From: Candidatus Hadarchaeota archaeon
GTDB lineage: Archaea > Hadarchaeota > Hadarchaeia > Hadarchaeales > JAGGTB01
Assembly: GCA_964399085.1 (NCBI GenBank)
Contig: CAYNPN010000001.1
Span: forward strand, 43,468-107,467
Direction: 5' to 3'
DNA: 64,000 nucleotides
Made by a program: the position numbers and the translations under genes
The notes under the pieces: model-generated
Told to the model about the DNA's origin: nothing
The model's input: only the letters and a program-made list of their open reading frames with translations
The model's database searches: none
Shown here: one piece after another, positions 24,793 through 62,604 of the stretch
How the letters are laid out: each line of letters begins with the position of its first letter
How positions within the stretch are numbered: the first letter of the stretch is position 1

Positions 24793-24820
24793 TTTTTTTG
24801 TTATGGGTGTAACAAAAAAT
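24793..24820. repeat. Palindrome copy 1: tttttttgttaTGGGTGtaacaaaaaat (10-bp arms, 6-nt spacer)
   Basis: Read directly from the sequence. Its last base is the first base of the stop-codon complement of gene 24820..25380. Confidence 0.9.
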
Positions 24821-25380
24821 TATTCAATTTTTTCTCTTAGTGGCGAAATCCTTTCCCTCAAACTCTCAGAAAATTCCATATCATCGGTCCAATCATTTTT
24901 CATTAACCTTTCACACTTCTCGATGACTTTTCTAATTTTTTGAAAATCGTCCTCATCCAAACTATCTTTATACTCCAGCCTAAGAAGGGCCTCAATTGAA
25001 GAATCTAAGGTTTGCTTGGGGGTAATTTTTATCCGATTCAAAGCTTCCCTCATTGCACTCATTCGATCTCCGGGGGGGAGAATTCCATCAAACGAATAGA
25101 GATCAATTGGATCCCATTTCGAATCCCCAAAAAAATCATCTAACTTATATCTGGCCTTCTTTGGGATAGCTATGACGCTTTTACCTAACCTGAGGTGGGG
25201 TAACGGGGTCAATAAACCAGGATAAAATCTCTCATAAACTTTTTCACGGCCTTTCTGATCCTCTCGTTTGGTCCTTGATTTGAAACCAAATAACTTTCTA
25301 TAGAACTTTGTTCTCTTTGACCCCTTAAATTGAAGATCAAAACTATAGATTCTGGCTAGAATTCCATCATCTATTTCCAT
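24820..25380 (-). CDS. Hypothetical protein, 186 aa, unknown function
   Basis: Clean ORF with an ATG start. The N-terminal ~100 aa (ARIYSFDLQF.GSKRTKFYRKLFGF ... LRLGKSVIAIP ... IDLYSFDG) has a beta-alpha-beta pattern that weakly resembles Cas2/VapD-type ferredoxin folds. That resemblance is inference only. The C-terminal half is helical and acidic. Confidence 0.7.
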   Translation of the reverse strand: MEIDDGILARIYSFDLQFKGSKRTKFYRKLFGFKSRTKREDQKGREKVYERFYPGLLTPLPHLRLGKSVIAIPKKARYKLDDFFGDSKWDPIDLYSFDGILPPGDRMSAMREALNRIKITPKQTLDSSIEALLRLEYKDSLDEDDFQKIRKVIEKCERLMKNDWTDDMEFSESLRERISPLREKIE

Positions 25381-25383
25381 CAG

Positions 25384-25409
25384 TTTTTGTTATGGGTGTA
25401 ACAAAAAAT
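25384..25409. repeat. Palindrome copy 2: tttttgttaTGGGTGtaacaaaaaat
   Basis: Begins 3 nt beyond the ATG complement of gene 24820..25380. On the gene strand it would span the TATA-to-start interval. Confidence 0.9.
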
Positions 25410-25486
25410 AAACTTTTGCTTTGTCTCTATTGAACACCACCCCCTTCGTTTCGAGTGGAGTATAATAAAAATCAAAAAATAAAAGG

Positions 25487-25511
25487 TTTTTTTGTTATGG
25501 GTGTAACAAAA
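25487..25511. repeat. Palindrome copy 3: tttttttgttaTGGGTGtaacaaaa
   Basis: Read directly from the sequence. It lies 78 nt from copy 2 in the AT-rich spacer before tyrS. Confidence 0.9.
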
Positions 25512-25608
25512 TAATTATATGAGAATATCGACCTTACTTAAAAATAGAATAAAAAATATAGGTTTTCGAAGAATTTATTTCCACTTGAAACAAAGGAGTG
25601 GCATTGAT

Positions 25609-26673
25609 TCACCGAGTTACTTTCTGCTGTTTTACGAATTCATATAGTTTATTAGCTTCTTCGTTTTCTTCAAAATATTCTCTAATAGGTTTCACCAATT
25701 CGTTAAGATATCTCGCTATATTCTTTTTCAAATCCAGAGGATGAAGATTCTCATTGAGGTATGCTTCCTCCAATTCCTCATAATTGTTAAACTTCATGTT
25801 ACCACCATATTCTTCCTTTCTCCTAATTTCAACCCCTTCAAAGTTTTCAAAAACCAGATGCTTTGTATAGTCTATAATCGGGTTATTTTTGACTTTACCC
25901 TCTGGACAATAAGCTCCTTTGATTTTTTCCAGAATTTCTTGCTCGGAGTCATGAACGTAAATAGAGGTAGAAGGTTTACTCTTACTCATCTTCTCTTCTT
26001 CACCACCACCCCCCAAACCCATCAACATATGATGAGAAACAGTCACAGGTTTCTCTCTATCCAATTTATCAGAGACTTCCCGTGCCAGCATATTCGCCCT
26101 CCTCTGATCTTGGCCCAGCTGACAGATATCCACATCGAGGTGGAAAATATCCGCCACCTGCATACTAGGATAAAAAATCCATGCCGCGGGATTTTCTCCA
26201 ACGCTTTCTCTCCCAGCTATCTTCAAAGCCCTTCGAGCTCTGTTTAGAGTGTGATTTTTCGCAACTCTAATTACAGTCTCCCAATATTCTTTATCGATTA
26301 TTTCGGATGCCCACAGAACCTCGACTTTGTCCATAGGAACGCCGGCTGCCCTCCAGACCTCTTGGAAGTATTCACCGACTTTCCTTATTTTTTCCAAATC
26401 TCCTCCCATCTTGTCGTTAATCCAAGCGTGCCAATCCGCAATAAGTAACTTGAATCTGACACCCGCGTCTATCAATTTCTTCAGATTTTGGGCCCTATAT
26501 ACGCCGAAAGCAACATGAGCCAAGCCCGAGGGTTCAAACCCGTCGTATGCCACGGGGTTTTGCTTTCTTTTTAGGAGGTCTTTCAACTCCTCCTCCGTGA
26601 CGATTTCCTCTCCCACTTCCCTAATTAGTTCAAATCTTTCATCAACATCCATGCTTACACCTAGTTTTTCCAT
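25609..26673 (-). CDS. tyrS: Tyrosyl-tRNA synthetase (archaeal type)
   Basis: AYDGFEPSGLAHV (HIGH-region equivalent), LIADWHAW and KMSKSKPST (KMSKS loop). Confidence 0.9.
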   Translation of the reverse strand: MEKLGVSMDVDERFELIREVGEEIVTEEELKDLLKRKQNPVAYDGFEPSGLAHVAFGVYRAQNLKKLIDAGVRFKLLIADWHAWINDKMGGDLEKIRKVGEYFQEVWRAAGVPMDKVEVLWASEIIDKEYWETVIRVAKNHTLNRARRALKIAGRESVGENPAAWIFYPSMQVADIFHLDVDICQLGQDQRRANMLAREVSDKLDREKPVTVSHHMLMGLGGGGEEEKMSKSKPSTSIYVHDSEQEILEKIKGAYCPEGKVKNNPIIDYTKHLVFENFEGVEIRRKEEYGGNMKFNNYEELEEAYLNENLHPLDLKKNIARYLNELVKPIREYFEENEEANKLYEFVKQQKVTR

Positions 26674-26800: not shown

Positions 26801-27625
26801 ATGAAATCCAGAGCAAGGTCTATTGCAATTTCCTCCGGTAAGGGGGGTACGGGTAAGACAACCCTGACTGCAAATCTCGGTATAGCCCTTGCCAACGAAG
26901 GACACGACGTTACAATCCTCGACGCCGATTTGACCATGGCCAATTTGGGAATTATTATAGGAATGGACAACTGTGAAGTCAGCTTCTTGGACGTCCTTTC
27001 GGGCCAGGTAGATCTTGAGGAGGCCATCTACCAAGATTACGGCGTTAAAGTAGTTCCCACCGGCTTCCGGTTTGAGGATGTACATGAAACCCTTTCGGAT
27101 GTGGATTCCGAGAGCGTCGAAAGTGCTGTCGGCGAGATTTTACGTCGTACCGAGATTCTATTAATCGACGTCCCCGCAGGAATGACGGATAATTCAATAA
27201 TTTCAATCGCGGCGGCCAGAGAAATGCTTCCTGTGACCAATCCGAATTATTCCAGCATCGTCGATACCTACAAGACGATTCGTTTAGCCAACGTTGTGGA
27301 TACTTGGACCAGGGGACTTGTACTTAATCGAGTCGGAAGATCTTCGGATATCTCTCAGGGGGAGATAGAGCACTTCATGGGAAAGACCCTCGGCTCCGTC
27401 TCCATTATCTCGGAGATCCCCGAGGATGAAGTCGTTCAGGAGGCCGAGCGTGCGGGTACCCCTGTCACGGTCTACGAACCCGAGGCCAGAGCTTCAAAAT
27501 CTATTTACGAACTGTCGAAGGTTATAACCGGCGAATCGGAACTACCTTACGAACCCTACGAGGAAAAGGAAATTGATAGAACGATCAAAAGACTTTCCCG
27601 GGCCCTCACCGGCCGCCGGACCTAG
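26801..27625 (+). CDS. minD: MinD/ParA-family P-loop ATPase
   Basis: Deviant Walker A SSGKGGTGKTT. ILDADLTMANL. 274 aa. Confidence 0.85.
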   Translation: MKSRARSIAISSGKGGTGKTTLTANLGIALANEGHDVTILDADLTMANLGIIIGMDNCEVSFLDVLSGQVDLEEAIYQDYGVKVVPTGFRFEDVHETLSDVDSESVESAVGEILRRTEILLIDVPAGMTDNSIISIAAAREMLPVTNPNYSSIVDTYKTIRLANVVDTWTRGLVLNRVGRSSDISQGEIEHFMGKTLGSVSIISEIPEDEVVQEAERAGTPVTVYEPEARASKSIYELSKVITGESELPYEPYEEKEIDRTIKRLSRALTGRRT

Positions 27626-32726: not shown

Positions 32727-33929
32727 GTGGAGAGAAATATGTACGGAGATATTTTTGAGGAGGAGATGTCGAAGGAGACCGTATTTAAAGATCAGTCGAA
32801 GCTCTCCCCCGACTTCGTTCCCGAGGAGCTGGTCCATCGGGAGGAAGAGTTTAGGAAGCTGACTCAATTCTTTAAACCCGTCTTGGAGAATCAGGCGAGT
32901 CAGAGGGTTCTGGTATCCGGCTCGGTGGGGGTCGGAAAGACGGCTCTCACATCGAGATTTGGCCAAGAACTGGAGTCGGCCGCCAAAAAGCGGGATATGG
33001 ATTTGGTCTACGCCCACGTAAACTGCCGGAAACGGGGGACGCCACAAATGGTTCTCCACAACCTGGCCAGTAATTTTCCCATCAGCGTGCCGAAGAGAGG
33101 ATTCGCACCACAGGAAATTATGGAACATATAGTCGACTATTTGGAGAAGAAGGACGTCTATCTCACCGTAACACTGGATGAACTCGATTACTTTATTCGT
33201 CAGAACGGTCCGGATCTTCTCTATTCCCTTACTCGAGTCGCCGAGGAATCTGGGACCCCCAATAGGTTGAGTATAATTGCCACTTCGTTTTCGCCGGACT
33301 TCCTGAAGTCCCTCGACGAGGCAACGCGCAGCACTTTCATGCACAACCAGATAGATATGGACAGATACAGCGCCGATCAGCTCTACGACATCCTATATCA
33401 GAGGGTAGATCTCGCCTTCAAGCCCAATATGGTCAGAGATGAAGCCATCGACCTCATTTCGAACATTGCATCCCGACGGGGAGATGCAAGATTTGCTCTC
33501 GAGCTCCTATCCTATTCCGGCATGATCGCCAGTCAGGGTGAGATCGTGGAGGTTTCGCCCAATCACGTTAGGAGGGCCAAGTCCGAGATAAACCCGGAGA
33601 TAAGGAAGGATGTCCTTATGGACCTCAGAAAACACGAGCTTCTATCGTTGCTCGCTCTCGCCAGGAGGCTGAAGATATCCGACGAGGCATTCGCCTTGAC
33701 CGGCGATGTGGAGGAGGCCTACAATATAGTCTGTGAGGAGTATCAGGAGAAACCTCGCAAACACGTCCAGTTTTGGAATTATATAAATAAGTTGGAGAAT
33801 TTGGGGATAGTTGATACCGAGAAATCAAGAGGAGGACACAGGGGTAAGAGCCAAAGGATCAGCATTTCCGACGCCCCCCCTGAGATGGTGGAGGAAGAAG
33901 TGGAAAAAATTCTTGAAAGAGGAAATTGA
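32727..33929 (+). CDS. cdc6: Orc1/Cdc6 replication initiator
   Basis: LVHREEEF.KL, Walker A GSVGVGKTA, Walker B TLDELD and a C-terminal winged helix (GKSQRISI). Confidence 0.9.
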   Translation: MERNMYGDIFEEEMSKETVFKDQSKLSPDFVPEELVHREEEFRKLTQFFKPVLENQASQRVLVSGSVGVGKTALTSRFGQELESAAKKRDMDLVYAHVNCRKRGTPQMVLHNLASNFPISVPKRGFAPQEIMEHIVDYLEKKDVYLTVTLDELDYFIRQNGPDLLYSLTRVAEESGTPNRLSIIATSFSPDFLKSLDEATRSTFMHNQIDMDRYSADQLYDILYQRVDLAFKPNMVRDEAIDLISNIASRRGDARFALELLSYSGMIASQGEIVEVSPNHVRRAKSEINPEIRKDVLMDLRKHELLSLLALARRLKISDEAFALTGDVEEAYNIVCEEYQEKPRKHVQFWNYINKLENLGIVDTEKSRGGHRGKSQRISISDAPPEMVEEEVEKILERGN

Positions 33930-33949: not shown

Positions 33950-34042
33950 GGGGCGGTGGTCTAGCTAGGTTGAGGACACCAGCTTCGGGACCTTCAAAGG
34001 CGAAAAAGCTGGAGATCCGGGGTTCGAATCCCCGCCGCCCCA
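33950..34042 (+). tRNA. tRNA-Pro (anticodon CGG) with a 17-nt intron (33990-34006) at the canonical 37/38 position
   Basis: Hand fold. Acceptor stem GGGGCGG/CCGCCCC. D stem GTCT/GGAC. Anticodon stem CCAGC/GCTGG. Loop TTCGGG|A. T arm CGGGG-TTCGAAT-CCCCG. Discriminator A. The intron forms a bulge-helix-bulge: UUCG/CGAA 4-bp helix flanked by the 3-nt bulges GGA and AAA. CCA is not encoded. Confidence 0.9.
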
Positions 34043-34107
34043 ATCGAACCTTTTATTCGGTTACTGGGCCCACTCCACCTTAGCTTCATAATGAAGCCTT
34101 GAAAATA

Positions 34108-34139
34108 GGCCGTGTAGTCACCTGCAAGACTACCGGACC
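34108..34139 (+). repeat. Palindromic site A1: ggccgtGTAGTCacctgcaaGACTACcggacc
   Basis: 6-bp perfect (12-bp imperfect) inverted arms around the core ACCTGCAA. This core variant is shared with B2. Confidence 0.8.
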
Positions 34140-34224
34140 ATCCACTTAGTATTATCAATAGCCACCAAGCAAAGAGTAATCTAATATTAGATTTTCACTT
34201 AGAAAGGCATAATCTTGTTTACTC

Positions 34225-34287
34225 CTAAACCATCTGGCTTTTCCAGTAGTCACCTACAAGATGACTGGAAAAGCCGAATAGTTTTAG
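34225..34287 (+). repeat. Palindromic site A2, with 12-bp perfect arms ggcttttccagt/actggaaaagcc around agtcacctacaagatg
   Basis: Read directly from the sequence. The arms extend imperfectly to ~26 bp. The core CTACAAGA is shared with B1. Confidence 0.85.
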
Positions 34288-34788
34288 ATTTTTGTTATAC
34301 TCATAACTAAAAATTGAACTTCTTGTTGATTCTCTAAACAGGGTTTTCTTCTACTTTCTCTAATAATTTCCTGAGATTATTAATTTCTTCAAAATTTAGC
34401 CCATTTAAAATTTCATTTTCGATGCAGAAATTGAAATCCTTAGTAGATTGAACAATTTTTACTTTCCCCTTCCACTGATGTTGTAGGCTTCCAAGCGATT
34501 TTTTCCGAGCAAATAGTCGAGGTATTTTTCCGTCGTGTTCCAGTTCAGGTCGGCGAACCTAACAATTGTATTTTTTACAGTCTTCACTACTCTTCACTGT
34601 CTCCAGAATATCGGCCCCAGTTTTTCCAGCCCCCAACCCATTAAACCATCACAACACCTTTAAAAGACACGGGGGAATAAATGGAAAACAGAAAAATCAG
34701 TTACTTTGTGAACTACTGAGCTCAGGAATAGCTAATATTTTACGAGTAATAAAGTTTTATGAGGAATAAAGGACTCAAAGTGTGTCCT

Positions 34789-35130
34789 TTATTTAAATGT
34801 GTGAATGAAAAACCCATCCCCGGATTTGTTTTCTTTTAGAAAATCTGAAAGTTCTTCTATTTCTACTAAGTTTATGGCTCTGGATGGACAATTTTCAACA
34901 CAAGGAACTATTCCTTTCTTTTCAAATAGCTCCATACATTCATTGCTCTCAACACATGCTCCTGTAGAAAAATGGGAGAATTCAATTCTAGGCCCACTCT
35001 CTGTATCTATAGGACCTTTCTTATCTAAGCTTATTCTTGGGGGGTTATTACCCACCGCCTTACAGCTTGCTACGCAAACACCGTTGCCAATGCATTTCTG
35101 TTGATCTATCACGATTACATGTGTAGCCAT
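34789..35130 (-). CDS. 4Fe-4S ferredoxin-domain protein
   Basis: CIGNGVCVASC and CVENCPSRAI cluster motifs. The stop lies 1 nt from the start of the upstream oxidoreductase gene. Confidence 0.75.
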   Translation of the reverse strand: MATHVIVIDQQKCIGNGVCVASCKAVGNNPPRISLDKKGPIDTESGPRIEFSHFSTGACVESNECMELFEKKGIVPCVENCPSRAINLVEIEELSDFLKENKSGDGFFIHTFK

Positions 35131-35131
35131 T

Positions 35132-37210
35132 TCAGTTAACCCTCTCTATTTTACAAGGGATACCTCTTTCCCCCATGTATCCAGTTACTGGATCTACATT
35201 ATCGTGTATGTCAATAAGGCGTGCTTCCTGATGTTCTCCCCTTGAAGCAATAACTGAGTCTGAGTGCATGCGTTCTGAAACTTTAGCCTTGTATTCTGCA
35301 CTGCCATTTTTTGTCTGAATTTTAATCCAGTCTCCGTCCTTTATCTCTTTTTCTTCAGCTACGCTTTTGTGAATGTAAGCCCGATTCTCCTCTAAAGTCT
35401 CTTCCAGGTCAGTTATTGCTGACCAAGTTGACCAAGAATGTTGTCTTTTCGGAGTAAAACTGGAAAATATCAGTGGGAATTCCTCATTTTGGCGGGGCCA
35501 TTGTTCATCGTGCCAAGTTGGTAGAGGCTCTACTCCAAAGTTTTCTAATATACTGGAGTAGATTTCGACTTTGCCAGTCGGAGTTTTAAACCCTTCCTCT
35601 TCATAAAGCCTTTCTTCTGCCTTTTCACCGACTTTTATAATCCCTTTTTCACGTAGTTCTTCAAATGAAATATATAATGGATCTAACATATAGTTGACAA
35701 TCTCTTTATTGTTTCTAAAGGGGAAATCATCTCCAAATCCCATTTTTTCAGCTAATTCGCCATATAATTCTAATCGCGATTTACATTCTCCAGGTGGTTC
35801 CACTAGTTTCTGCCGGACACTAATTATCCCCTCTTTATTGAAATTGGCTAGAGAGAAATTGTTTCTTTCAAGAAATGTTGTTGACGGGAATATTACGTCT
35901 GCTAGTTCACCGGTTTCGTTCATGTATACGTCATAGACAACAAGCAAATCCAAATTGTTTTTTATTCCCTTAACTGCTTTCTTATAATTAGGTTTTCTAA
36001 CTACGAAATTGCTCGCATCACAAATCAGTGCTTTTATATTTCCTTCCCAAAATTCCTCCATAAATGCGTTATCTATTACAGTTCTTTCTTTTGAGGCATT
36101 GTAAATTGCAGGATACTGTTTATATTTTTCGTGTTTAGGAATATTTCTTTTTTCATGCAAACCAAATCTTTTATCCCCCGTTAAAGTTCGTTCATCTATT
36201 TTCGGTTCTCTGTCCCTGTAAAATTGTTTTGCTCCAATAATATCGATATTTCCTGTTATTGTTTCTAAAATAGAAAGCGCTCGGGCATTTTGAAAGTACT
36301 GTGAGTGATGACAGCTAACATTTGGAGTTATCCAGGCCGGTTTCTTTGAGGCAAATATACGTGCAACTTCTTTAATGGTTTCCGCATCTACATCGGTTAT
36401 TTTTTCTGCCCACTCTGGCTTGTATTTTTTTACGTGTTCTTTGAGTTTATCGAAGCCATAAGTCCAATCTTCTATAAATTCTTTGTCGTAGAGGCCTTCT
36501 TCAATTATGACGTTTATCATTGCGAGAGCCATTGCAAAGTCCGTGTTCGGTCTTATTCTTACCCATTTATCAGCTTTTGATGCTATTGGGGTTAATCTGG
36601 GGTCTATGACTATCAGGTCAGTATCTCCGTTTAAGACAGCGTCTGGAACCCCCATATACGCTTCTAAATTCCCATTCCAAATAATTACCAGCTTAGAGGA
36701 TTTGAAAAAATCGAATGTATCTAGCACATCATATGATGCAGCGCCGAACGTATACATTTCAGATAGAAGGTTTGGTGCATAGCACAGTCCTGATCCATCG
36801 CAATAGTTCGACGAACCAATTGCGTCCATAAACCTTCTGTGTAGACGAAAGCTGTAAGGTTCAGCCTCACATCCAGTAACCAATCCTACCGAATCTGATC
36901 CGTATTCTTCTATTATCTCATTCAGCTTGTTTGCAGTATAATTAATGGCCTTACTCCAAGATACCTCTCTCCACTTTCCTTTTCCCCTCTTTCCATCTCT
37001 AATCAGTGGCTCTGTTAGGCGTTTGTCATCGTATTCAAATTGAGTTGCTGAGGCTCCTTTTGCACAAAGAACTCCACGATTCATTGGATGCTCTTTATTA
37101 CCATAAAGTGACTTGATTTTTCCGTTTTTTAAATGGGCAATCATTCCACATTCTTTTCTACAGATTTTACAAGTAGTTTTTAAAAACTGTTCACGGTTAT
37201 CTGAGCCCAT
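35132..37210 (-). CDS. Molybdopterin (bis-MGD) oxidoreductase, cytoplasmic type
   Basis: N-terminal Fe-S motif CKICRKECGM...C. MopB core and a C-terminal beta-barrel. No twin-arginine leader. 692 aa. Confidence 0.82.
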   Translation of the reverse strand: MGSDNREQFLKTTCKICRKECGMIAHLKNGKIKSLYGNKEHPMNRGVLCAKGASATQFEYDDKRLTEPLIRDGKRGKGKWREVSWSKAINYTANKLNEIIEEYGSDSVGLVTGCEAEPYSFRLHRRFMDAIGSSNYCDGSGLCYAPNLLSEMYTFGAASYDVLDTFDFFKSSKLVIIWNGNLEAYMGVPDAVLNGDTDLIVIDPRLTPIASKADKWVRIRPNTDFAMALAMINVIIEEGLYDKEFIEDWTYGFDKLKEHVKKYKPEWAEKITDVDAETIKEVARIFASKKPAWITPNVSCHHSQYFQNARALSILETITGNIDIIGAKQFYRDREPKIDERTLTGDKRFGLHEKRNIPKHEKYKQYPAIYNASKERTVIDNAFMEEFWEGNIKALICDASNFVVRKPNYKKAVKGIKNNLDLLVVYDVYMNETGELADVIFPSTTFLERNNFSLANFNKEGIISVRQKLVEPPGECKSRLELYGELAEKMGFGDDFPFRNNKEIVNYMLDPLYISFEELREKGIIKVGEKAEERLYEEEGFKTPTGKVEIYSSILENFGVEPLPTWHDEQWPRQNEEFPLIFSSFTPKRQHSWSTWSAITDLEETLEENRAYIHKSVAEEKEIKDGDWIKIQTKNGSAEYKAKVSERMHSDSVIASRGEHQEARLIDIHDNVDPVTGYMGERGIPCKIERVN

Positions 37211-37310
37211 TTAACCGTTTTATATTCTCTTTCAGAAGTTTTATATGGGTTTCGGTTTAGAAAATGGTGCTGATGGTGTGCTGATTCTTCTATTCTAGTT
37301 AGGGTTGCTG

Positions 37311-37340
37311 GACGCCTCCAAACCACGATATGGAGGCGTC
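37311..37340. repeat. Hairpin gacgcctcc-N12-ggaggcgtc, with the same 9-bp stem as 51790-51820
   Basis: tgGACGCCTCC...GGAGGCGTCa is identical at both loci (11 + 10 nt) while the loops differ. Confidence 0.8.
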
Positions 37341-37518
37341 AGACGAAAATTTGACAGAACAAGAAATAAAAGAATTTGCTCTCGAAAGAGTGCCTACCTA
37401 TGCCCATCCTAGAAAATTTTTCTTTAAAGATGAGCTTCCAAAAAGCGGAGTTCTAAAAACAAAACACTTCAAACTGGAGGAAGAGGCCAAAGATCTTCTC
37501 TCGGATCCTCTTGGTTAA
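37330..37518 (+). pseudogene. C-terminal fragment of an AMP-dependent acyl-CoA synthetase
   Basis: LTEQEIKEFALERVPTYAHPRKFFFKDELPKSG..K matches the conserved C-terminal block of adenylate-forming ligases. The apparent ATG is part of the hairpin at 37311-37340. Its orientation is opposite to the intact ligase. Confidence 0.65.
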
Positions 37519-37700
37519 AAGGACAGAATTAACGACTAATACACGTTTCTTAATCCGATGAAATATATATGCCACATCGGTAATGGAGCGTCTGAGCTAT
37601 TTTTCCTATGGTCATCATATCCTGCAATGTTGGCGGGGGGATTACTATATGTTAGAATTCTTACTTTATTTTCAACTTCATAAGTTATTCGGATATTTTT

Positions 37701-39248
37701 TTACTCATTTTTCTTCAACTTTTCCCTATCCACCTTTCCAGTCGTTGTTCTGGGAAAATCTTCTTCGCCTAAAAATTCGTAGGATTTTGGTCTCAAATAG
37801 CTAGCAAACTCTTGTTCTGCCCACCACTTATCTAAATCCTCGGCTTTGAGTTTTTTACTATTTCTGATATATGCCTTTGGAACTTTACCCCACTTTTCGT
37901 GCGAAATTGGAACCACCACCGAATCGATGACATCGGGATGGTTGGATAATTTATCGCTTACGTCTTCGGCGTGGATTTTCACCCCGCCACTCTTGAACAT
38001 GAAATCCATTCTTCCAGTTAAGTATAAATATCCTTCTTCATCGATGTATCCCGTATCCCCAGTTTTGCACCAACCATTGGGATATACTTCTTCAGTGTCA
38101 ACAGGCGTATCCTTCCATACCCTTGACGTTTCAGTCATAGGGTTATGTATATATATCTCTCCCTCCTCTCCTCTTTCCTTTGGTTCTCCACTCTCTGGGT
38201 CTCGGATTTTAATTTCTGTTTCGGGAAAAGGCAACCCCACGCTTTCGACTGACTTCTGCACATTTCTATCAAGAAACGGGTAAGTATGTGTTCCTGCGGT
38301 TTCGGTCATGTAATAAGTATGAAAGATTTTGGGGCACACTTTCTCTCTAATCCGCCTCAATTCAGATTCCGATATTTTTTCTCCCCCTATATGTACCCTT
38401 TCCAAACTATCTAAATCGTATTTTTCTGGATTTTCTTCCAATTCTCCTATTATCCAAGGCCATAGGGACGGAACAGCAAAAAAGGTAGTTATTTTTTCTT
38501 CTCCGAGGGCTGAGAGCACGTCAGATATGGTGAATTCTCGAAGATAAACCATAGTAGCTGCAGTATACATAGTCGAGCCAACCCAAGCCCACCAAGCCAT
38601 AAAGTTTGTTGCGTAGGGATAGAGGAATCTTTCCCAGTACGATTCTAACCCTGGAGAATTAGATATCAAGAATAGTCTTCCTTGATTAGTGAATGTTATA
38701 GGCTTAGGTCTTCCCGTCGTTCCGGATGTAAATATTATGTTACAGTCATCATCTGCGTTGACTTCTATGTCTGGTTCCTCTGCCCCACTATATTTTTCCA
38801 TTATTTCATTATATGTGAACTCTTCCGGAGAATCTCCAGATCCTCCAATCGAAACAAAAGCTTCGACACTAGGTAAACCCATTTCCTTCATCCCCTCAAC
38901 TTTTTCTACTAAATCTTCATCGTATACCATAACTTTAGGCTTTAGTACATTAGCCATCCATTTCAACCCCTCTACTCCTTCGAGATGTGACAGATTGGAT
39001 GAGATACCTCCAAACTTTTGAGAGGCATACGCAGAAACCTGATGGGCGACACTAGGCCTACACAATGTAATCATTCTGTCTCCTTTTTCCATCCCTGCCT
39101 CTTCTCTGTAAAAAGCACTCATTGCATTTAGCCCCCTGTTTAATTCCTTGAATGTTATTCTCTCTCCTTTTGGGTAATCTACTGCTGCTTCCCTCTCACC
39201 AAAGTTATCCCCCAACCATCTGAAAACTTCCTTCCAGCTTTTCATCAT
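37701..39248 (-). CDS. AMP-dependent acyl-CoA synthetase/ligase
   Basis: IIFTSGTTGRPKP, GWCKTGDTGYIDEEGYLYLTGR and a C-terminal PRTTTGKVDR. Confidence 0.88.
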   Translation of the reverse strand: MMKSWKEVFRWLGDNFGEREAAVDYPKGERITFKELNRGLNAMSAFYREEAGMEKGDRMITLCRPSVAHQVSAYASQKFGGISSNLSHLEGVEGLKWMANVLKPKVMVYDEDLVEKVEGMKEMGLPSVEAFVSIGGSGDSPEEFTYNEIMEKYSGAEEPDIEVNADDDCNIIFTSGTTGRPKPITFTNQGRLFLISNSPGLESYWERFLYPYATNFMAWWAWVGSTMYTAATMVYLREFTISDVLSALGEEKITTFFAVPSLWPWIIGELEENPEKYDLDSLERVHIGGEKISESELRRIREKVCPKIFHTYYMTETAGTHTYPFLDRNVQKSVESVGLPFPETEIKIRDPESGEPKERGEEGEIYIHNPMTETSRVWKDTPVDTEEVYPNGWCKTGDTGYIDEEGYLYLTGRMDFMFKSGGVKIHAEDVSDKLSNHPDVIDSVVVPISHEKWGKVPKAYIRNSKKLKAEDLDKWWAEQEFASYLRPKSYEFLGEEDFPRTTTGKVDREKLKKNE

Positions 39249-39265
39249 TTTGTCATCTCACTCCC

Positions 39266-41320
39266 TCATAACTGTTTTATTTTACATAAGCAGGATCTCA
39301 TATCGACTGCTCCTGAAACCGGATCTTTGGGTTCCTCAGGAGTTACGAGATTTATATTTGATTTCCCTCCCCATCCATGGTATGCGTGAACCACGCCTTG
39401 CATTATTTCATCAGTGATTTTCGCTTTCATCTGTGCGGAGCCACGTTTGGTGGATATTTCTACAAGAGTTTCATCCTTGATTCCGTACTTTTCTGCATCG
39501 TTGGGATTAATCTCGACCAAAGGGTCTGGGAATTTTTTCCGCAACCGTGGTATGTCTCTGTAATTTGAATGCTCGAATATTGCTGTCCTCCCCCCCGTTG
39601 TCAGAACCAACGGGTACTCTGTGGCGAGATCAGGGTTCGATCTTGGAATTTCAGGGGGATCATTATAGGTAGGAAGAGGTTCATAACCGTATCTCTTCAT
39701 TTTCTCTGAATAAAGCTCAACTTTTCCCGACTCCGTATTAAACCCTTCTTCCTTGTACTTCTCGAACTCTCGCGGCGCAAAGAAGAATCCCATAGGATGT
39801 TCTTTCATCCATGTGAGTGATGTGCCCATCTGTTGACATATCTCGTCCAAAAATGCTTCCTCGCCTTCCCATGGAAAGAACTCTTCGAGTCCCATCCTTT
39901 TCGATAGCTCCAATATGAAGTTAAGATCTGATTTGCTTTCTCCTATAGGTTCTATTACTTTTTGGGCTAGTGTGGCCAAAGGCAATCCTCCACCCAGCCA
40001 GTATGTCCTGAGAGAATTTCTTTCCAATAAAGTAGCAGCAGGTAGCACCAAATCGGCTAATTTCGCCGTTTCTGTCATTCTTAAGTCCATAACCACGGTA
40101 AAGTCGCAATGTTCCAGTGCTTCCCTCGTTCTCTCCGCATTTGCACGGGTCTTGACAAAAGCTCTCCCCATAAACATGGCCGCCTTTATATCTCCTGAAA
40201 TCATTTGATCAGCCATTATAGCATCGGGCTTTTCAACCGGATAATTTATCCTTGATATTTCATCGCAAAATAAAGGGAATTCCTCCTCCGCTTTGGCTTT
40301 TTTGGTGACCTTTTCTTTAAGTTCTGTTCCTAACTTTACGGAAGGGGCAGGAGAACGCTGGGATCCCCCCTCCTTGTCTACGTTTCCTGTTATAGCTTTT
40401 AGACAGGAAATCGCTCTATTGGTTTGAAAAGCATTTGAATGTTGAGATTGTATTCCGACACCTGAATACAAGGTTGCGGGTTCTGATTTGGCGTACAAGG
40501 TTGCGGCTTCAACGATTTTATCAGCGGGTACTCGGGTTATTTCCTCCACCTTGGTAGGGGTATACTTCTTCACTTTGTCTGATAATTTATCAAAGCCAGT
40601 CGTCCATCTTTCTACAAATTCTTTGTCATAAAGGTTCCGTGATATGATTACATTCATGAAGCCTAATGCTAAGGCTCCGTCTGTCCCTGGTAGAACCTGA
40701 AGGTGGATATCGGATAATTCTGCAAGGCGCGTTCTTCTTGGATCTACCGTGATAATGGGGATTTCTTCGCTCAAACTCTTTAGTCTCTTTCGCAATTCGA
40801 CAGCCGGACCTGATTCCCAAAGATTTCCACCCCAATTCAGTAAACATTCAGTTCCCCCCGCATTCCAATACATATAGTCTCCAAAAGTTACCGCATCAGA
40901 GACTATCATGGGATACCAGCAATCATTTCCCATTGATAACATGTTGGGAGTACCGTAAGCGTATGCAAAGCGCTCCAAAGCCCACATCATCTCGTCTCCA
41001 ATGTGGGGATGTCCCATGTTTATCGCAAAGGCTTCAGGCCCATAATCCTGCTTGATTTCGTTTAACCTGTCTGATATTATATCTAAGGTCTCATCCCAAG
41101 ATATTCTCTTCCATTTGTTATTTTTCCTTTGGAGAGGATTAAGCAAACGGTTAGGCGAGTAAAGATTATCAGCCATCGCAGAAAATTTTGGACACTTTCC
41201 CCCTAGCCAACTATGGGAATCAGAAGGTTCCCAATCGACTACCTTTCCTTCCTCAACTGTAACCTCAATACCACAGTTTACTCCACACATTCCACACACT
41301 GTGTGTATTTTTTCAGTCAT
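39266..41320 (-). CDS. Molybdopterin (bis-MGD) oxidoreductase, second paralog
   Basis: N-terminal CGMCGVNCGI...C. 684 aa, collinear with 35132..37210. No Tat leader. An AT-rich promoter region lies at 41321-41400. Confidence 0.82.
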   Translation of the reverse strand: MTEKIHTVCGMCGVNCGIEVTVEEGKVVDWEPSDSHSWLGGKCPKFSAMADNLYSPNRLLNPLQRKNNKWKRISWDETLDIISDRLNEIKQDYGPEAFAINMGHPHIGDEMMWALERFAYAYGTPNMLSMGNDCWYPMIVSDAVTFGDYMYWNAGGTECLLNWGGNLWESGPAVELRKRLKSLSEEIPIITVDPRRTRLAELSDIHLQVLPGTDGALALGFMNVIISRNLYDKEFVERWTTGFDKLSDKVKKYTPTKVEEITRVPADKIVEAATLYAKSEPATLYSGVGIQSQHSNAFQTNRAISCLKAITGNVDKEGGSQRSPAPSVKLGTELKEKVTKKAKAEEEFPLFCDEISRINYPVEKPDAIMADQMISGDIKAAMFMGRAFVKTRANAERTREALEHCDFTVVMDLRMTETAKLADLVLPAATLLERNSLRTYWLGGGLPLATLAQKVIEPIGESKSDLNFILELSKRMGLEEFFPWEGEEAFLDEICQQMGTSLTWMKEHPMGFFFAPREFEKYKEEGFNTESGKVELYSEKMKRYGYEPLPTYNDPPEIPRSNPDLATEYPLVLTTGGRTAIFEHSNYRDIPRLRKKFPDPLVEINPNDAEKYGIKDETLVEISTKRGSAQMKAKITDEIMQGVVHAYHGWGGKSNINLVTPEEPKDPVSGAVDMRSCLCKIKQL

Positions 41321-41523
41321 AAAATCATACTTTTTTTCTTTTTATATGATATAAATATTTCTAATATATATAATATATATAATATAAATAAATTTTCCGC
41401 GATGTGGAGGTGCTGTTAAGTTAAGCTATTTTTAGGAGTAGATACATTCCGGAATCTGGAGGTTGGGTCGGGAGAAGTAAAGAAGGAGGTGGATACCCCC
41501 TGATTGGAAAACTCCAAAGGTTT

Positions 41524-42078
41524 TTGCAGGACCTTCTCCCGGAGAATTTTGGGAGGAATTTCAGTGATAAATATTTCGACAGGAACAGGACGAGCCCGGC
41601 TGTGAGGGCTTTCGGAGCCTATCTCTACGTGTCGCAGGGCTCAAGCTACCGGAAAGTTGCCCGGCTCCTTGAGGACTTCTCGATCTTGGTCTCCCACGTC
41701 GCCGTGTGGTCGTGGGTCCAGAGACTCGAGGAGGAGCTCGAGGGTGAAGTTTTCAGGAGAAGGAGAAGAAAGGTCATAATCGCGGACGAGACCAAAATAA
41801 AGACTAAGAAGGGCTGGATTTACGTGTTCACGACGATAGACCTTGTGAGGAGGATTTTCGTTACCTACATAGACGAGCACTCTATGCCCGAAGTCGTCTT
41901 CCAGCTTAACGAGGAGGGAATCGAGACCAAGAGGGGTAAGGGATGTTTGGCTTGGTCGGTGGAGAAAATCCTCGACAATAAAATATACATCGGTCAGTAT
42001 GAGGTCGCCGGGGTGGAATTAAGGAAATTTTTCTTAAGACTATTCGGCTTTTCCAGTCGATATCTACAAGACGACTGA
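41524..42078 (+). pseudogene. Chimeric remnant: an IS6-like DDE transposase N-terminal part fused to a ~55-aa piece of a large-serine-recombinase 'recombinase' domain
   Basis: AYLYVSQGSSYRKVARLL...VSHVAVWSWVQ...VIIADETKIKTKKGWIYVFTTID is IS6-like. Then RIFVTYIDEHSMPEVVFQLNEEGIETKRGKG..WSVEKILDNKIYIGQY matches the serine-integrase recombinase domain. The last ~15 codons are simply the translated palindrome B1. Confidence 0.6.
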
Positions 42079-42097
42079 GAAAACCAGATAGTCTTAG
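42033..42097 (+). repeat. Palindromic site B1: cttaagactattcggcttttccagtcg-atatctacaaga-cgactgagaaaaccagatagtcttag
   Basis: ~26-bp imperfect inverted arms. The core is in the same orientation as in A2. Confidence 0.85.
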
Positions 42098-42124
42098 CAA
42101 GTTACGAACCTTTCCTTCCGTTCT

Positions 42125-42142
42125 CCGCCGCCCCATCGCACC
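42125..42142 (+). repeat. Duplicate of the tRNA-Pro 3' end (candidate attR core)
   Basis: ccgccgcccca is identical to 34032-34042. The following tcgcacc compares with tcgaacc after a 1-nt gap. Confidence 0.6.
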
Positions 42143-42190
42143 AAGGTTTGAATCTTTTCCAATTTTCGGTGAGGAAAAAGAGACAAGGGA

Positions 42191-42249
42191 CTTAAGACTT
42201 ATAGATACCTGCAAGACGACTGGGGCTGAAATACTGAGTAGTCTTTAAA
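42191..42249 (+). repeat. Palindromic site B2 (degenerate): cttaagacttatagatacctgcaagacgactggggctgaaatactgagtagtctttaa
   Basis: The outer arms ttaagact/agtctttaa and the right half caagacgactg match B1. The core CCTGCAAGA matches A1. Confidence 0.7.
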
Positions 42250-44136: not shown

Positions 44137-45373
44137 CCGAGAAGACACCTTCCCAATCGTGGATTGGGTGGGTGATGAATCGGCGTTTAGTTTCACTGCC
44201 CCCTCCCGATAAGAGGTTAGAAAGTTAGGCGAGTGATTCCGTGTTGATGAAGGTTCGGAAGACGATTAAGTGCAAGATAGTCGATCTTACCGAAAAGAAG
44301 AGGAAAGCTCTTGAAAGAGAGTATGAGAATCTTCAAGAATATCTTCGCGAAAATGAGAATGTAGAACTCTATTCGGCAAACAAGCAACAGGCGGAGAGGT
44401 ACTACGAAGAGATCAAGGACGGCAAGGAATATCCTATCTCGGTTAGGAAAGATTTGATAGATATTCAAAGAGCGGACAACGAAATAGCGGAATATTGGTT
44501 AAATGTGAGAGTTGCTTCCGTCTACGGAGGTATCAATGTCCCTATCAAACCTCACATCCAAATCCCCTCCGATGGCGGCGGTGTGGAATATTGTGAATCC
44601 AAGATTTTGAAAAAGGATGGAGAGTTCTATTTTCACCTGACCGTTAAGAAAACCGTTCAGGCTAAGGAATCCTACGACGGTCTCCTTGCCGTAGATGTCG
44701 GGCAGAAATACCTCGCGGTGTCGGTGGCATCGCACAGAGATAGACCGAAATTTCGGGGCAGGGAGATCAGAGGAATTCGGAGACACTACAACTGGCTGCG
44801 GAAAAGGCTCGGGGAGAAGAAGCTGAAAGATGAAATAGCGAGACTTTCGGACAAGGAATCCCGAAAGGTAGACCAAAAACTACATGAAATAGCCAAAGAA
44901 CTCGTAGAAGAAGCCGACCAAAACGATGAGTTGATAGTCGTCGGAAACCTTGAAGGATTGAGGAAAGGCAGCGGCGATATGGGGGAGACGATGAACCGGA
45001 TGATCGGCAATTTTCCCTACCACAAGCTCGCAAAATATCTCGAATATAAGGCTAACGAAAGAGGGATACAGGTCTTGAAGATGAACGAGCACTACACCAG
45101 TCGAGAATGTAGCAGGTGCGGTGCAAAAGGAAAAAGACCGAATCAGGGAACTTTCAAGTGTCCCCGGTGCGGATACGAGGTTAATGCCGACTTCAACGGC
45201 GCCAAGAATATTTTCGAACGTACCAAGGTGGCGTCGGGTAACATTCCCGGCGTCGGGGCCGTGAGTGGGCCGGCCCTTAACCCTTCCGATATGGTCTCCA
45301 CCTCTGGCTCTACAAGTGGGGAGACCGAGGAGGGAAGCCTCTTCCTAACGAGCGAGGCGAGTTAGGTGGAGGT
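44137..45373 (+). mobile_element. IS200/IS605-family element carrying only tnpB (IS1341-like); the ends are approximate (+/-5 nt)
   Basis: The left end has the hairpin CCCAAT-cgtgg-ATTGGG (44152-44168). The right end has the hairpin GCCTC-N12-GAGGC (45337-45358) followed by gagttaggtgg. Both ends recur in the MITE at 21878-22019, and the left end recurs at 54247-54296. Confidence 0.75.
44247..45365 (+). CDS. tnpB: TnpB (RuvC-like, RNA-guided-nuclease family; OrfB_IS605)
   Basis: RuvC triad context: LAVDVG (D), IVVGNLEG (E) and VNADFNGAKNI (D). Zinc ribbon CSRCG...CPRCG. The track starts at GTG 44241, and an ATG lies at 44247. Confidence 0.88.
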   Translation: MKVRKTIKCKIVDLTEKKRKALEREYENLQEYLRENENVELYSANKQQAERYYEEIKDGKEYPISVRKDLIDIQRADNEIAEYWLNVRVASVYGGINVPIKPHIQIPSDGGGVEYCESKILKKDGEFYFHLTVKKTVQAKESYDGLLAVDVGQKYLAVSVASHRDRPKFRGREIRGIRRHYNWLRKRLGEKKLKDEIARLSDKESRKVDQKLHEIAKELVEEADQNDELIVVGNLEGLRKGSGDMGETMNRMIGNFPYHKLAKYLEYKANERGIQVLKMNEHYTSRECSRCGAKGKRPNQGTFKCPRCGYEVNADFNGAKNIFERTKVASGNIPGVGAVSGPALNPSDMVSTSGSTSGETEEGSLFLTSEAS

Positions 45374-62577: not shown

Positions 62578-62604
62578 ATTTTTTGTTACACCCATAACAA
62601 AAAT
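62578..62604. repeat. Palindrome copy 4 (spacer inverted): attttttgttaCACCCAtaacaaaaat
   Basis: The same arms as copies 1-3 at 24.8-25.5 kb. It lies in the 150-nt gap between two minus-strand genes. Confidence 0.9.

What the first reader, a model, noticed from the sequence alone, without database searches (positions are those of the whole stretch)
34108..42249. Two nested pairs of long palindromic sites at the island borders, with a reciprocal arm swap resembling attP x attB products
- **Sites:** four sites share an asymmetric core, CT(A/G)CAAGA, all on the + strand, flanked by inverted arms.
- **Nesting:** the inner pair A2 (34225-34287) and B1 (42033-42097) has core CTACAAGA. The outer pair A1 (34108-34139) and B2 (42191-42249) has core CTGCAAGA. 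The layout is A1[A2 ... B1]B2.
- **Arm swap:** A2's left arm reads atctggcttttccagt and its right arm, reverse-complemented, reads attcggcttttccagt. B1's left arm reads attcggcttttccagt and its right arm, reverse-complemented, reads atctggttttctcagt. Each site is therefore mismatched at the same dinucleotide, in reciprocal fashion.
- **Interpretation:** this is what is expected if two perfectly symmetric parent sites (attcgg...ccgaat and atctgg...ccagat) recombined inside the core. Dyad-symmetric att sites with a small asymmetric centre are typical of serine integrases. A serine-recombinase gene fragment sits directly against B1.
- **Caveat:** the diagnostic difference is only 2 nt per arm, and the outermost arm bases do not follow the swap.
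Basis: seen in the sequence. Interest (0 to 1): 0.7.

Follow-up and report, generated by a model that had tools for sequence, protein, structure and literature searches.

The report
Decayed archaeal island with palindromic junctions
An 8-kb foreign gene island sits at a proline tRNA gene of an uncultured brine-type archaeon, and its two large palindromic border sites look like the scars of site-specific insertion; this is an ordinary kind of mobile island, but with unusual sites and an unidentified recombinase.

Summary
Only A2 and B1 are long palindromes. A1 is a short one and B2 is not palindromic.

**Inner pair.** A2 and B1 behave as recombination junctions. Joining B1-left to A2-right gives a near-perfect 60-bp palindrome (z -11). 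The two island-side arms are the most alike.

**Independent support.** A related species (L015) has an unrelated 8.5-kb island between the same arms. It is inserted into the site orthologous to B2. Its junctions are non-palindromic, but its rebuilt attP is palindromic (z -6.6).

**Outer pair.** A1 and B2 are not a recombinant pair. They are intact target-type sites, each 74-80 nt after a copy of the tRNA-Pro 3' end.

The island's outer limits are a regenerated tRNA 3' end (34029-34042) and a displaced fragment (42122-42135). The native tRNA flank follows the displaced fragment.

**Recombinase.** The fragment next to B1 is real, but it is a 60-aa piece fused to an IS6 transposase fragment. Its nearest relatives lack the zinc-ribbon domain of large serine integrases. 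No intact recombinase lies in the window or in the L015 island. Site-specific insertion is well supported; serine catalysis is not shown.

The parts
33950..34042 (+). tRNA gene with an intron; by my reading tRNA-Pro (anticodon CGG, intron after position 37). It lies directly downstream of orc1/cdc6 (32739-33929).
   Evidence: Rfam RF00005, 55 bits. ARAGORN missed it. It is 87-95% identical to the tRNA after orc1 in L014, L015 and L016.
34029..34042 (+). Regenerated tRNA 3' end (TCCCCGCCGCCCCA); left copy of the outer direct repeat.
   Evidence: Repeat family D9.
34043..34107 (+). Island-borne spacer between the tRNA end and A1. It is unrelated to the flank that follows this tRNA in relatives.
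   Evidence: BLAST finds no match to L014, L015 or L016 beyond position 34050; alignment.
34108..34139 (+). A1: short palindrome (10-nt arms, 12-nt centre), core CTGCAAGA at 34122-34129, 80 nt after the tRNA end. Intact target-type site.
   Evidence: Fold -7.8 kcal/mol, z -3.35. Resembles the L014 site, which also lies 74 nt after its tRNA.
34225..34287 (+). A2: left junction (attL-like) of the inner island. The left arm (34227-34247) is the diverged target-type arm. Core CTACAAGA at 34254-34261. The right arm (34264-34284) is the canonical element-type arm.
34289..34313 (+). Degenerate copy of a hairpin motif that is dispersed in this lineage (TTTTTGTTAT...ATAAC.AAAAA), directly after A2.
   Evidence: A canonical copy sits in the same place after the L015 junction.
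34337..34618 (-). Frameshifted winged-helix (HTH_45-like) pseudogene at the island's left end.
   Evidence: Three overlapping reading-frame pieces. Weak PF14947 hit, E 0.006. An intact HTH_45 gene has the same position and strand in L015.
34789..41320 (-). Cargo genes: a 4Fe-4S protein (34789-35130), a molybdopterin oxidoreductase (35132-37210), an AMP-dependent ligase (37701-39248) and a second molybdopterin oxidoreductase (39266-41320). A 62-aa AMP-binding_C fragment lies on the + strand at 37330-37518.
   Evidence: Pfam. GC is 0.408 for the island against 0.453 for the rest of the window.
41406..41844 (+). IS6-family remnant: a terminal-repeat-like GGAGGTGCTGTTAAGTTAAGC (41406-41426) and the N-terminal 107 aa of the transposase (41575-41844).
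   Evidence: NF033587, E 1e-17, aa 18-107. 67% identical to an MSBL1 archaeon transposase up to the first catalytic Asp. Short-read contigs break at 41420-41436. The terminal repeat is my reading.
41824..42015 (+). Serine-recombinase 'Recombinase' domain fragment (profile positions 4-63 of 102), fused in frame to the IS6 fragment in ORF 41524-42078.
   Evidence: PF07508, E 1e-11. Matches CcrB positions 178-239. 51% identical to aa 194-252 of a 577-aa Resolvase+Recombinase+TFIIB protein.
42033..42097 (+). B1: right junction (attR-like). The left arm (42035-42059) is the canonical element-type arm. Core CTACAAGA at 42064-42071. The right arm (42072-42096) is the diverged target-type arm.
42106..42135 (+). 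Conserved 19-nt block GAACCTTTCCTTCCGTTCT plus the displaced tRNA 3' fragment TCTCCGCCGCCCCA (42122-42135); right copy of the outer direct repeat.
   Evidence: A 39-nt stretch is 90% identical at L014 14334-14372.
42136..42190 (+). Native downstream flank of the tRNA, displaced to the right of the island.
   Evidence: Window 42122-42189 is 85.5% identical to L015 11264-11332, which is that genome's tRNA 3' end and flank. It is 75% identical to the L014 equivalent; alignment.
42191..42248 (+). B2: unoccupied, non-palindromic target-type site, core CTGCAAGA at 42209-42216, 74 nt after the displaced tRNA fragment. Orthologous to the site occupied by an island in L015.
   Evidence: Fold z -0.09. 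Aligns with the rebuilt L015 target. Spacing.

Best explanation
**What it is.** Window 34043-42121 is a decayed, low-GC genomic island. It lies at the 3' end of an intron-bearing tRNA-Pro gene next to orc1, in an MSBL1/Hadarchaeota-type archaeon. It has two layers.

**Outer layer.**
- The island sits between a regenerated tRNA 3' end and a displaced tRNA fragment, and the native flank follows that fragment.
- This is the classic signature of integration into a tRNA gene.

**Inner layer.**
- A 7.8-kb cargo segment is bounded by A2 and B1. I read these as the hybrid junctions of a site-specific recombination.
- One partner was a near-perfect ~60-bp palindromic element site (B1-left + A2-right).
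- The other was a related but poorer palindromic target (A2-left + B1-right).
- The crossover lay inside the shared 8 bp CTACAAGA.

**A1 and B2.**
- They are unrecombined target-type sites ('landing pads').
- In this lineage such a site lies 74-80 nt downstream of each copy of the tRNA 3' end.
- In a related species the B2-type pad is occupied by a different island carrying the same element arms.

**The enzyme.**
- No island encodes an intact recombinase now.
- The window's fragment suggests a Resolvase + Recombinase-domain serine recombinase once sat beside the element site, or that one acts in trans.

**Shown and inferred.**
- Shown: the sites, the tRNA duplication, the displaced native flank, and the L015 parallel.
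- Inferred: that recombination at the cores made A2 and B1, the enzyme class, and the order of events.
For: **The locus is an insertion hot spot.**
- The tRNA end and its displaced fragment are 14 nt with 1 mismatch.
- The native flank is displaced to 42122-42189, which is 85.5% identical to the L015 tRNA end and flank.
- Island GC is 0.408 against 0.453 for the rest of the window.
- The conserved downstream genes (Metallophos_2 and the SMUBP-2-type helicase) lie 8-10 kb from the tRNA in L014 and L026. In the window they lie 16.6 kb away.

**A2 and B1 behave as hybrid junctions.**
- A2 and B1 fold at z -5.3 and -5.7.
- The swapped parent B1-left + A2-right folds at -24.3 kcal/mol, z -11.3.
- The island-side arms match each other at 20/22. 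They match the L015 island-side arms at 18-21/22. The outer arms match these at only 13-17/22.

**L015 shows the same event independently.**
- Its junctions at 11340-11386 and 19845-19912 are non-palindromic (z -1.0 and -0.7).
- Its rebuilt element site folds at -21.2 kcal/mol (z -6.6).
- Its rebuilt target is non-palindromic and aligns with B2.
- Its 8-bp identity block is TGTTACAA.
- Its cargo is unrelated: IrrE-like peptidase, HD and HD-CE proteins, and a PRTase-like protein.
- Both islands have the same left-end module: element arm, hairpin, then a winged-helix gene on the - strand.

**The sites are not a dispersed repeat.** An arm profile finds only these sites in the 64-kb window and about 106 kb of relatives' loci.

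**A recombinase fragment is present**.
Against: - No intact recombinase lies in the window's 45 ORFs of 150 aa or more. None lies in the L015 island.
- No empty A2-left + B1-right site was found anywhere, and no free palindromic element site.
- By simple match counts the swap gives no net gain in symmetry, and one outer position follows the site rather than the swap.
- The window's inferred target is itself element-like. Canonical large serine integrases do not normally recombine two attP-like sites (established knowledge).
- An 8-bp identity block in both events fits tyrosine recombinases or a target-site duplication better than the 2-bp crossover of serine recombinases.
- How the outer tRNA-level event and the inner palindrome-level event relate is unresolved.
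- L015 differs from the window at species or genus level (Orc1 77% identical). The 'empty site' evidence therefore comes from across species, not from within a population.
Confidence: 0.6

Rival explanations
1. **Transposon reading.** The inner island is a DDE-type transposon, or was mobilised like one. The element-type arms are its ~23-30-bp terminal inverted repeats. The 8-bp repeat (CTACAAGA in the window, TGTTACAA in L015) is a target-site duplication, as IS6-family elements make.
For: - The terminal arms match at 20/22.
- An 8-bp direct repeat flanks both independent islands.
- In L015 the repeat abuts the arms symmetrically, with 2 nt on each side.
- An IS6 transposase fragment lies just inside the right end.
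- That IS6 elements make 8-bp duplications is established knowledge.
Against: - In the window the repeat is 0-1 nt from the left arm but 4-5 nt from the right arm.
- All three targets share the same core consensus YTRCAAGA, at a fixed 74-80 nt from a tRNA end.
- The window's target carries arms homologous to the supposed terminal repeats. This is expected for a recombinase site and not for a transposon target.
- The IS6 remnant has its own, different terminal repeat at 41406-41426.
- L015 has no transposase.
Confidence: 0.12
2. **Accessory-site reading.** The palindromes do not recombine. They are binding sites (arm-type or accessory sites, or operators of the adjacent winged-helix regulator) clustered around the attachment region of an island that integrates into the tRNA through a tyrosine integrase. 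The only real junctions are then the tRNA 3' end and its displaced fragment.
For: - The tRNA duplication and the displaced native flank are present.
- On a circular form, B1, the tRNA-like core, A1 and A2 would all fall within about 400 bp (coordinates).
- A winged-helix gene or pseudogene lies next to A2 and next to the L015 site.
- Islands in tRNA genes are usually made by tyrosine integrases (PMC4383910).
Against: - In L015 the two half-sites lie 8.5 kb apart, each joined to half of a B2-type site, and they rebuild a z -6.6 palindrome. Binding sites would not be split this way.
- The best-matching arms are the two island-side ones.
- No tyrosine integrase was found.
Confidence: 0.15
3. **Repeat-family reading.** The sites belong to a generic REP/MITE-like palindromic repeat family, or arose by local duplication. 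The arm pattern would then be chance.
For: - The swap rests on one dinucleotide, and one arrangement in three would look reciprocal (my count).
- Another hairpin motif is truly dispersed in these genomes.
Against: - A profile of the arms finds no further copy in the 64-kb window or in about 106 kb of five relatives' loci, apart from the two L015 junctions.
- Exact-pattern scans of 185,579 species genomes, JGI metagenomes and IMG/VR found only chance hits. PLSDB plasmids and GenBank phages gave no match.
- The sites sit at fixed distances from tRNA-end copies.
Confidence: 0.08

Closest known systems
Genomic islands integrated in tRNA genes, as mapped by Islander (usually made by tyrosine integrases)
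   Same: - The tRNA 3' end is regenerated by island DNA.
- A displaced tRNA fragment, followed by the native flank, marks the far end.
- The cargo has low GC.
- The locus is a hypervariable hot spot (PMC4383910).
   Different: - No integrase gene lies in the island.
- The repeat is only 11-14 nt and imperfect.
- An extra layer of ~60-bp palindromic junctions and 'landing pad' sites lies outside the tRNA itself.
Large serine recombinase attP x attB systems (phiC31, Bxb1, A118, SCCmec CcrAB)
   Same: - The att sites have dyad symmetry around an asymmetric centre.
- The junctions are hybrids.
- The element site is more symmetric than the target.
- A Recombinase-domain fragment matching CcrB positions 178-239 lies beside the right junction.
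   Different: - The sites are longer: 21-25-nt arms and a 12-16-nt centre.
- The identity block is 8 bp, not 2 bp.
- The window's target is itself element-like.
- The nearest full-length relatives have no zinc-ribbon domain.
- The gene is a 60-aa relic fused to an IS6 fragment.
- The L015 island has no recombinase.
Tycheposons and tandem island hot spots at tRNA genes in Prochlorococcus (bioRxiv 10.1101/2020.12.28.424599)
   Same: - Cargo islands accumulate next to a tRNA.
- Partial tRNAs and fragmented integrases are scattered in the island.
- New arrivals push older ones outward.
- A minority of elements use serine recombinases.
   Different: - The host is an archaeon.
- The sites are palindromes downstream of the tRNA.
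- No replication or integration module survives here.
Integrase-less units bounded by palindromic sites: integron cassettes (attC) and Xer-dependent elements (dif-like sites)
   Same: Cargo units without their own recombinase, bounded by imperfect palindromes. This would imply mobilisation in trans.
   Different: - There are no GTTRRRY/RYYYAAC core sites, and no IntI or attI.
- The units are 8 kb and hold several genes.
- dif has two 11-nt repeats and a 6-nt spacer and is single-copy (PMC8371274). Here the arms are 21-25 nt, the centre is 12-16 nt, and there are several copies.

Membership tests
tRNA-gene (tDNA) genomic island | The target tRNA gene is regenerated by island sequence, and a displaced 3' fragment marks the other end. 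| tested here: met
   34029-34042 against 42122-42135, 13 of 14 identical. The fragment is followed by the flank that follows this tRNA in relatives, at 85.5% over 69 nt.
tRNA-gene (tDNA) genomic island | An integrase gene (normally a tyrosine recombinase) lies inside the island. | tested here: not met
   No Phage_integrase hit among the island ORFs, the six-frame translations of both ends, or the 45 window ORFs of 150 aa or more.
Large serine recombinase integration module | An intact gene with Resolvase, Recombinase and zinc-ribbon/coiled-coil domains lies next to the att site. | tested here: not met
   Only Recombinase-domain positions 4-63 of 102 survive, fused to an IS6 transposase fragment. 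No Resolvase or zinc-ribbon remnant was found. The nearest relatives have Resolvase + Recombinase only.
Large serine recombinase integration module | attL and attR are reciprocal hybrids of an attP and an attB, each an imperfect inverted repeat around the crossover. | tested here: met
   - Window: the swapped element site folds at z -11.3 and the swapped target at z -4.9.
- L015: the junctions fold at z about -1, the rebuilt element site at z -6.6, and the rebuilt target aligns with B2.
Large serine recombinase integration module | The crossover is at a 2-bp central dinucleotide, with no need for longer identity. | not testable with these tools
   The identity blocks are 8 bp in both events. 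The cleavage positions need biochemistry.
REP/MITE-like dispersed palindrome family | Many copies are scattered through intergenic regions of the genome. | tested here: not met
   The arm profile finds only the A2, B1 and L015 junction arms in the window and five relatives' loci. The whole genome was not available, so this covers about 170 kb only.
Integron gene cassette / attC | The site ends in the inverse core RYYYAAC and the core GTTRRRY, and IntI and attI lie nearby. | tested here: not met
   The site ends read CTAAAC...GTTTTAG and TAAGAC...GTCTTAG. No integron integrase was found.
Xer/dif-dependent element | [quoted passage not shown] | tested here: not met
   The arms are 21-25 nt and are separated by 12-16 nt. 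The dif geometry is from PMC8371274.
DDE transposon with terminal inverted repeats | The target-site duplication directly abuts both terminal repeats, and a transposase lies inside. | tested here: inconclusive
   - An 8-bp repeat is present in both islands.
- Its offsets are 2 and 2 nt in L015, but 0-1 and 4-5 nt in the window.
- The only transposase is a truncated IS6 with a different terminal repeat.

The most novel reading that the evidence does not exclude
MSBL1/Hadarchaeota-type archaea may carry a system of integrase-less cargo cassettes (metabolic in this window, defence-type in L015). Each would bear a ~60-bp palindromic site, and a Resolvase + Recombinase-domain serine recombinase lacking the zinc ribbon would insert it in trans. 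The target would be a conserved landing pad 74-80 nt downstream of tRNA-Pro, beside orc1. Each arriving island would bring a fresh landing pad. This would be an archaeal counterpart of integron- or tycheposon-like gene capture.
Probability: 0.15. Interest if true: 0.7.

Novelty: new member of a known kind. Interest (0 to 1): 0.4.

Why it matters
- Site-specific integration in archaea has been characterised almost only for tyrosine recombinases. A 2021 review states that archaeal serine recombinases 'were never fully investigated' (PMC8371274).
- This locus gives concrete, testable sites for an uncultured lineage: an element palindrome, a conserved target 74-80 nt after tRNA-Pro, and two independent insertions with different cargo.
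- If the enzyme is found, it would define a new archaeal integration module and a defined landing pad.
- If not, this remains an ordinary decayed island at a tRNA hot spot.

Tried and rejected
**Collection scans**
- An exact-pattern scan of 185,579 species genomes for the arm + core pattern gave 4 unrelated bacterial hits. The window's species is not in that collection.
- Element-arm scans of IMG/VR and of JGI metagenomes gave only chance hits without palindromes.
- The rebuilt element site has no match in PLSDB plasmids or GenBank phages.
- IMG/VR holds no relatives of the recombinase fragment, of the L015 winged-helix protein, or of the nearest full-length recombinase.

**Empty site in the same species**
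- All contigs carrying the window's Orc1, DUF5667 or oxidoreductase proteins carry the island, or break inside the tRNA.
- The breaks fall in conserved tRNA sequence, so they say nothing about polymorphism.

**Readings rejected**
- An attP inside the recombinase gene (as in SSV-type integrases): the + strand after A2 does not continue the gene.
- C/D-box sRNA: the Rfam snoCD11 hit scores 20 bits against a threshold of 60.
- Origin-recognition boxes: only one ORB-like match in the window, at 25579.
- A core-like site inside the MinD gene at 27268 is treated as chance.

**Other negatives**
- A recombinase relic at the right end of the L015 island: the best tblastn hit has E 2.4, and Pfam finds nothing.
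- PDB sequence search with the fragment: no hit.

Full report
**What the window is.**
- The window comes from an uncultured archaeon. Identical sequence is found in NCBI MAGs GCA_905333695.1, GCA_905333535.1 and GCA_905333355.1, and in short-read assemblies of ERR5414649.
- Its Orc1/Cdc6 protein (32739-33929) is 64-69% identical to proteins named MSBL1 or Hadesarchaea. It is 73-82% identical to unnamed relatives.
- An intron-bearing tRNA lies directly after orc1, at 33950-34042 (Rfam 55 bits). ARAGORN missed it. By my reading of the anticodon loop it is tRNA-Pro(CGG).

**Checking the observation.**
- All four sites are present as described, each with CT(A/G)CAAGA on the + strand.
- An extended 16-nt pattern is eight-fold enriched, and four of its eight matches are the sites.
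- A2 and B1 are strong palindromes: arms of 21 nt at 86% and 25 nt at 80%, and DNA hairpin z-scores of -5.3 and -5.7.
- A2 is the top close-spaced inverted repeat in the window.
- A1 is a much shorter palindrome (z -3.35). B2 is not palindromic (z -0.09).
- The TC/CT dinucleotide does swap reciprocally between the arms.
- Over 29 nt per arm the swap gives no gain in matched positions (41 as found, 39 swapped), and position -20 follows the site.
- By energy the swap does matter. B1-left + A2-right becomes a near-perfect palindrome (-24.3 kcal/mol, z -11.3). A2-left + B1-right (-13.0, z -4.9) is no worse than the actual sites.
- Swapping the outer pair yields nothing.

- The last 14 nt of the tRNA (34029-34042) recur with one mismatch at 42122-42135, between B1 and B2.
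- The sequence from that fragment onward (42122-42189) is 85.5% identical to the tRNA 3' end and downstream flank of relative L015. It is 75% identical to that of L014 (alignment).
- The DNA that now follows the window's tRNA (34043 onward) matches no relative.
- So 34043-42121 was inserted between the tRNA body and its native flank. This is the pattern of regenerated target and displaced fragment used to map tRNA-gene islands (PMC4383910).
- The island has lower GC than the rest of the window, 0.408 against 0.453.
- The locus is a hot spot. The conserved downstream genes (Metallophos_2 and the SMUBP-2-type helicase) lie 8-10 kb from the tRNA in L014 and L026. They lie 16.6 kb away here, and the genes in between differ in every relative.
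- A 39-nt block covering the displaced fragment and the 19 nt before it is 90% identical at L014 14334-14372. I cannot explain this fully.

**The comparative key: L015.**
- L015 comes from GCA_964608515.1; its Orc1 is 77% identical to the window's.
- There the tRNA is followed by the native flank and, 77 nt after the tRNA end, by CCTTAAGGACTG-TTACAAAT-CGATTGGAAAAGCCGAATAGTCTCGG.
- The right half of this site, and the DNA after it, match A2's right arm and the island's left end.
- About 8.5 kb further on lies AAAACTATTCGCCTTTTCCTATCG-tttg-TTACAAGA-CTATTGGATTTGTCGCTTAGTCTTCTC.
- Neither junction is palindromic (z -1.0 and -0.7).
- Joining the two island-side halves gives a strong palindrome (-21.2 kcal/mol, z -6.6).
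- Joining the two outer halves gives a non-palindromic site that aligns with the window's B2.
- The L015 island has different cargo: an IrrE-like peptidase, an HD protein, an HD-CE protein and a PRTase-like protein. Its GC is also low, 0.328 against 0.389 upstream.
- It shares a left-end module with the window's island: element arm, hairpin, then a winged-helix gene on the - strand. That gene is intact in L015 and frameshifted in the window.
- The four island-side arms of the two species match at 18-21 of 22. The window's outer arms match them at only 13-17 of 22.
- This is independent evidence that a palindromic element site recombines with a target downstream of this tRNA.

**Reading the four sites.**
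- A2 and B1 are junctions of the inner 7.8-kb island.
- Its target was not B2. It was another, element-like palindrome (A2-left + B1-right) lying in a thin 'shell': 211 nt on the left, including A1, and 50 nt on the right.
- That shell is itself bounded by the tRNA-end repeats.
- A1 and B2 are intact target-type sites. Their cores lie 80 and 74 nt after a tRNA-end copy. The equivalent sites lie at 77 nt in L015 and 74 nt in L014.
The outer layer is the tRNA duplication, not an A1/B2 recombinant pair.
- The order of events is inferred and unresolved. So is whether one enzyme made both layers.

**The recombinase.**
- ORF 41524-42078 is a chimera. Residues 18-107 are the N-terminus of an IS6 transposase (NF033587, E 1e-17), 67% identical to an MSBL1 protein up to the first catalytic Asp.
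- Residues 101-164 are positions 4-63 of the serine-recombinase 'Recombinase' domain, corresponding to CcrB 178-239.
- A full HMMER search found 41 relatives. The closest full-length ones have Resolvase + Recombinase domains and no zinc ribbon: two of about 317 aa, and one of 577 aa with a TFIIB repeat.
- No other recombinase debris lies at either island end.
- No serine or tyrosine recombinase is among the window's 45 larger ORFs. The window does hold a TnpB and an IS110 transposase.
- The L015 island has no recombinase.
- The enzyme class therefore remains open. Dyad-symmetric sites and the fragment favour a serine enzyme. The 8-bp identity blocks and an element-like target fit a tyrosine or lox/dif-like system at least as well.

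**Rivals.**
- A dispersed REP/MITE family is not supported. An arm profile finds nothing else in the window or in about 106 kb of relatives' loci. Pattern scans of large collections found only chance hits. Searches of plasmids and phages found no match.
- A transposon with terminal repeats and an 8-bp duplication fits L015. It fits the window poorly, because the offsets are unequal, the core is conserved in every target, and the target resembles the 'terminal repeats'.
- Passive binding sites around a tyrosine-type attachment region cannot explain the split palindrome in L015.

**Verdict.**
- This is a real and fairly well-supported mobile-element border structure of a known general kind: an integrative genomic island at a tRNA hot spot.
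- It lies in a poorly studied archaeal lineage and has unusually long palindromic sites. No enzyme has been identified.
- Interest is moderate.

Noticed in passing
window 24796-24817, 25385-25406, 25490-25511 (+), 62581-62602 (-); also L014, L015, L026-L029: A near-invariant hairpin, TTTTTTGTTATGGGTGTAACAAAAAA, is dispersed in intergenic regions. It keeps the same loop across species whose Orc1 proteins are only 73-78% identical to the window's. Shuffles of the window predict no matches. Its function is unknown; a terminator or a protein-binding site are possibilities.
   Followed up: partly
window 25407-25489 (between two hairpin copies); L014 2547-2616, L015 2435-2508, L026 4054-4118: A conserved ~75-nt segment (…CACCCCTTCGTTTCGAGTGGAGTATAATAAAAA…) is bracketed by two copies of the hairpin in four genomes. 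It could be a small RNA gene or an origin element. Rfam finds nothing there at gathering thresholds.
   Followed up: no
window ~24800-25700: This is the most AT-rich stretch of the window (GC 0.35). It holds a single ORB-like box, TTCCACTTGAAAC, at 25579, and L014 has GTTTCCAGTGGAAACAAAGGG at the matching place. It may be the replication origin, about 7 kb upstream of orc1.
   Followed up: partly
window 42106-42144 and L014 14334-14372: A 39-nt block (GAACCTTTCCTTCCGTTCT plus the displaced tRNA 3' fragment) is 90% identical in two species whose surrounding non-coding DNA does not align. In L014 it lies 3 kb downstream of the tRNA and is preceded by a core-like CTTACAAATC. This suggests a shared or constrained attachment module.
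   Followed up: partly
window 41524-42078; proteins P0126, P0136, P0140: The nearest full-length relative of the recombinase fragment is a 577-aa protein with Resolvase, Recombinase and TFIIB-repeat domains. Others are ~317-aa Resolvase + Recombinase proteins without a zinc ribbon. Some hits carry the domain 3-7 times in one protein.
   Followed up: partly
window 41340-41436: An AT-rich low-complexity palindromic stretch (TATATAATATA repeats) lies just before an IS6-like terminal repeat at 41406-41426. Short-read contigs break at 41420-41436, consistent with other IS6 copies in the genome.
   Followed up: partly
window 44241-45365 and 51806-52888: A TnpB (Cas12f1-like TNB domain) gene and an IS110-family (DEDD) transposase gene lie in the variable zone downstream of the island. 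The MAG contig ends inside the TnpB gene, at 44382.
   Followed up: no
window 37330-37518 (+): A 62-aa ORF matching only the C-terminal end of AMP-binding enzymes lies between the cargo genes, on the opposite strand to the intact ligase. It is probably a gene fragment left by rearrangement inside the island.
   Followed up: no
window 27241-27281 (inside the MinD/ParA-like gene 26801-27625): A coding stretch, TTCCAGCATCGTCGATACCTACAAGACGA, resembles B1's inner left arm and core. It has no palindromic partner and was treated as chance.
   Followed up: partly
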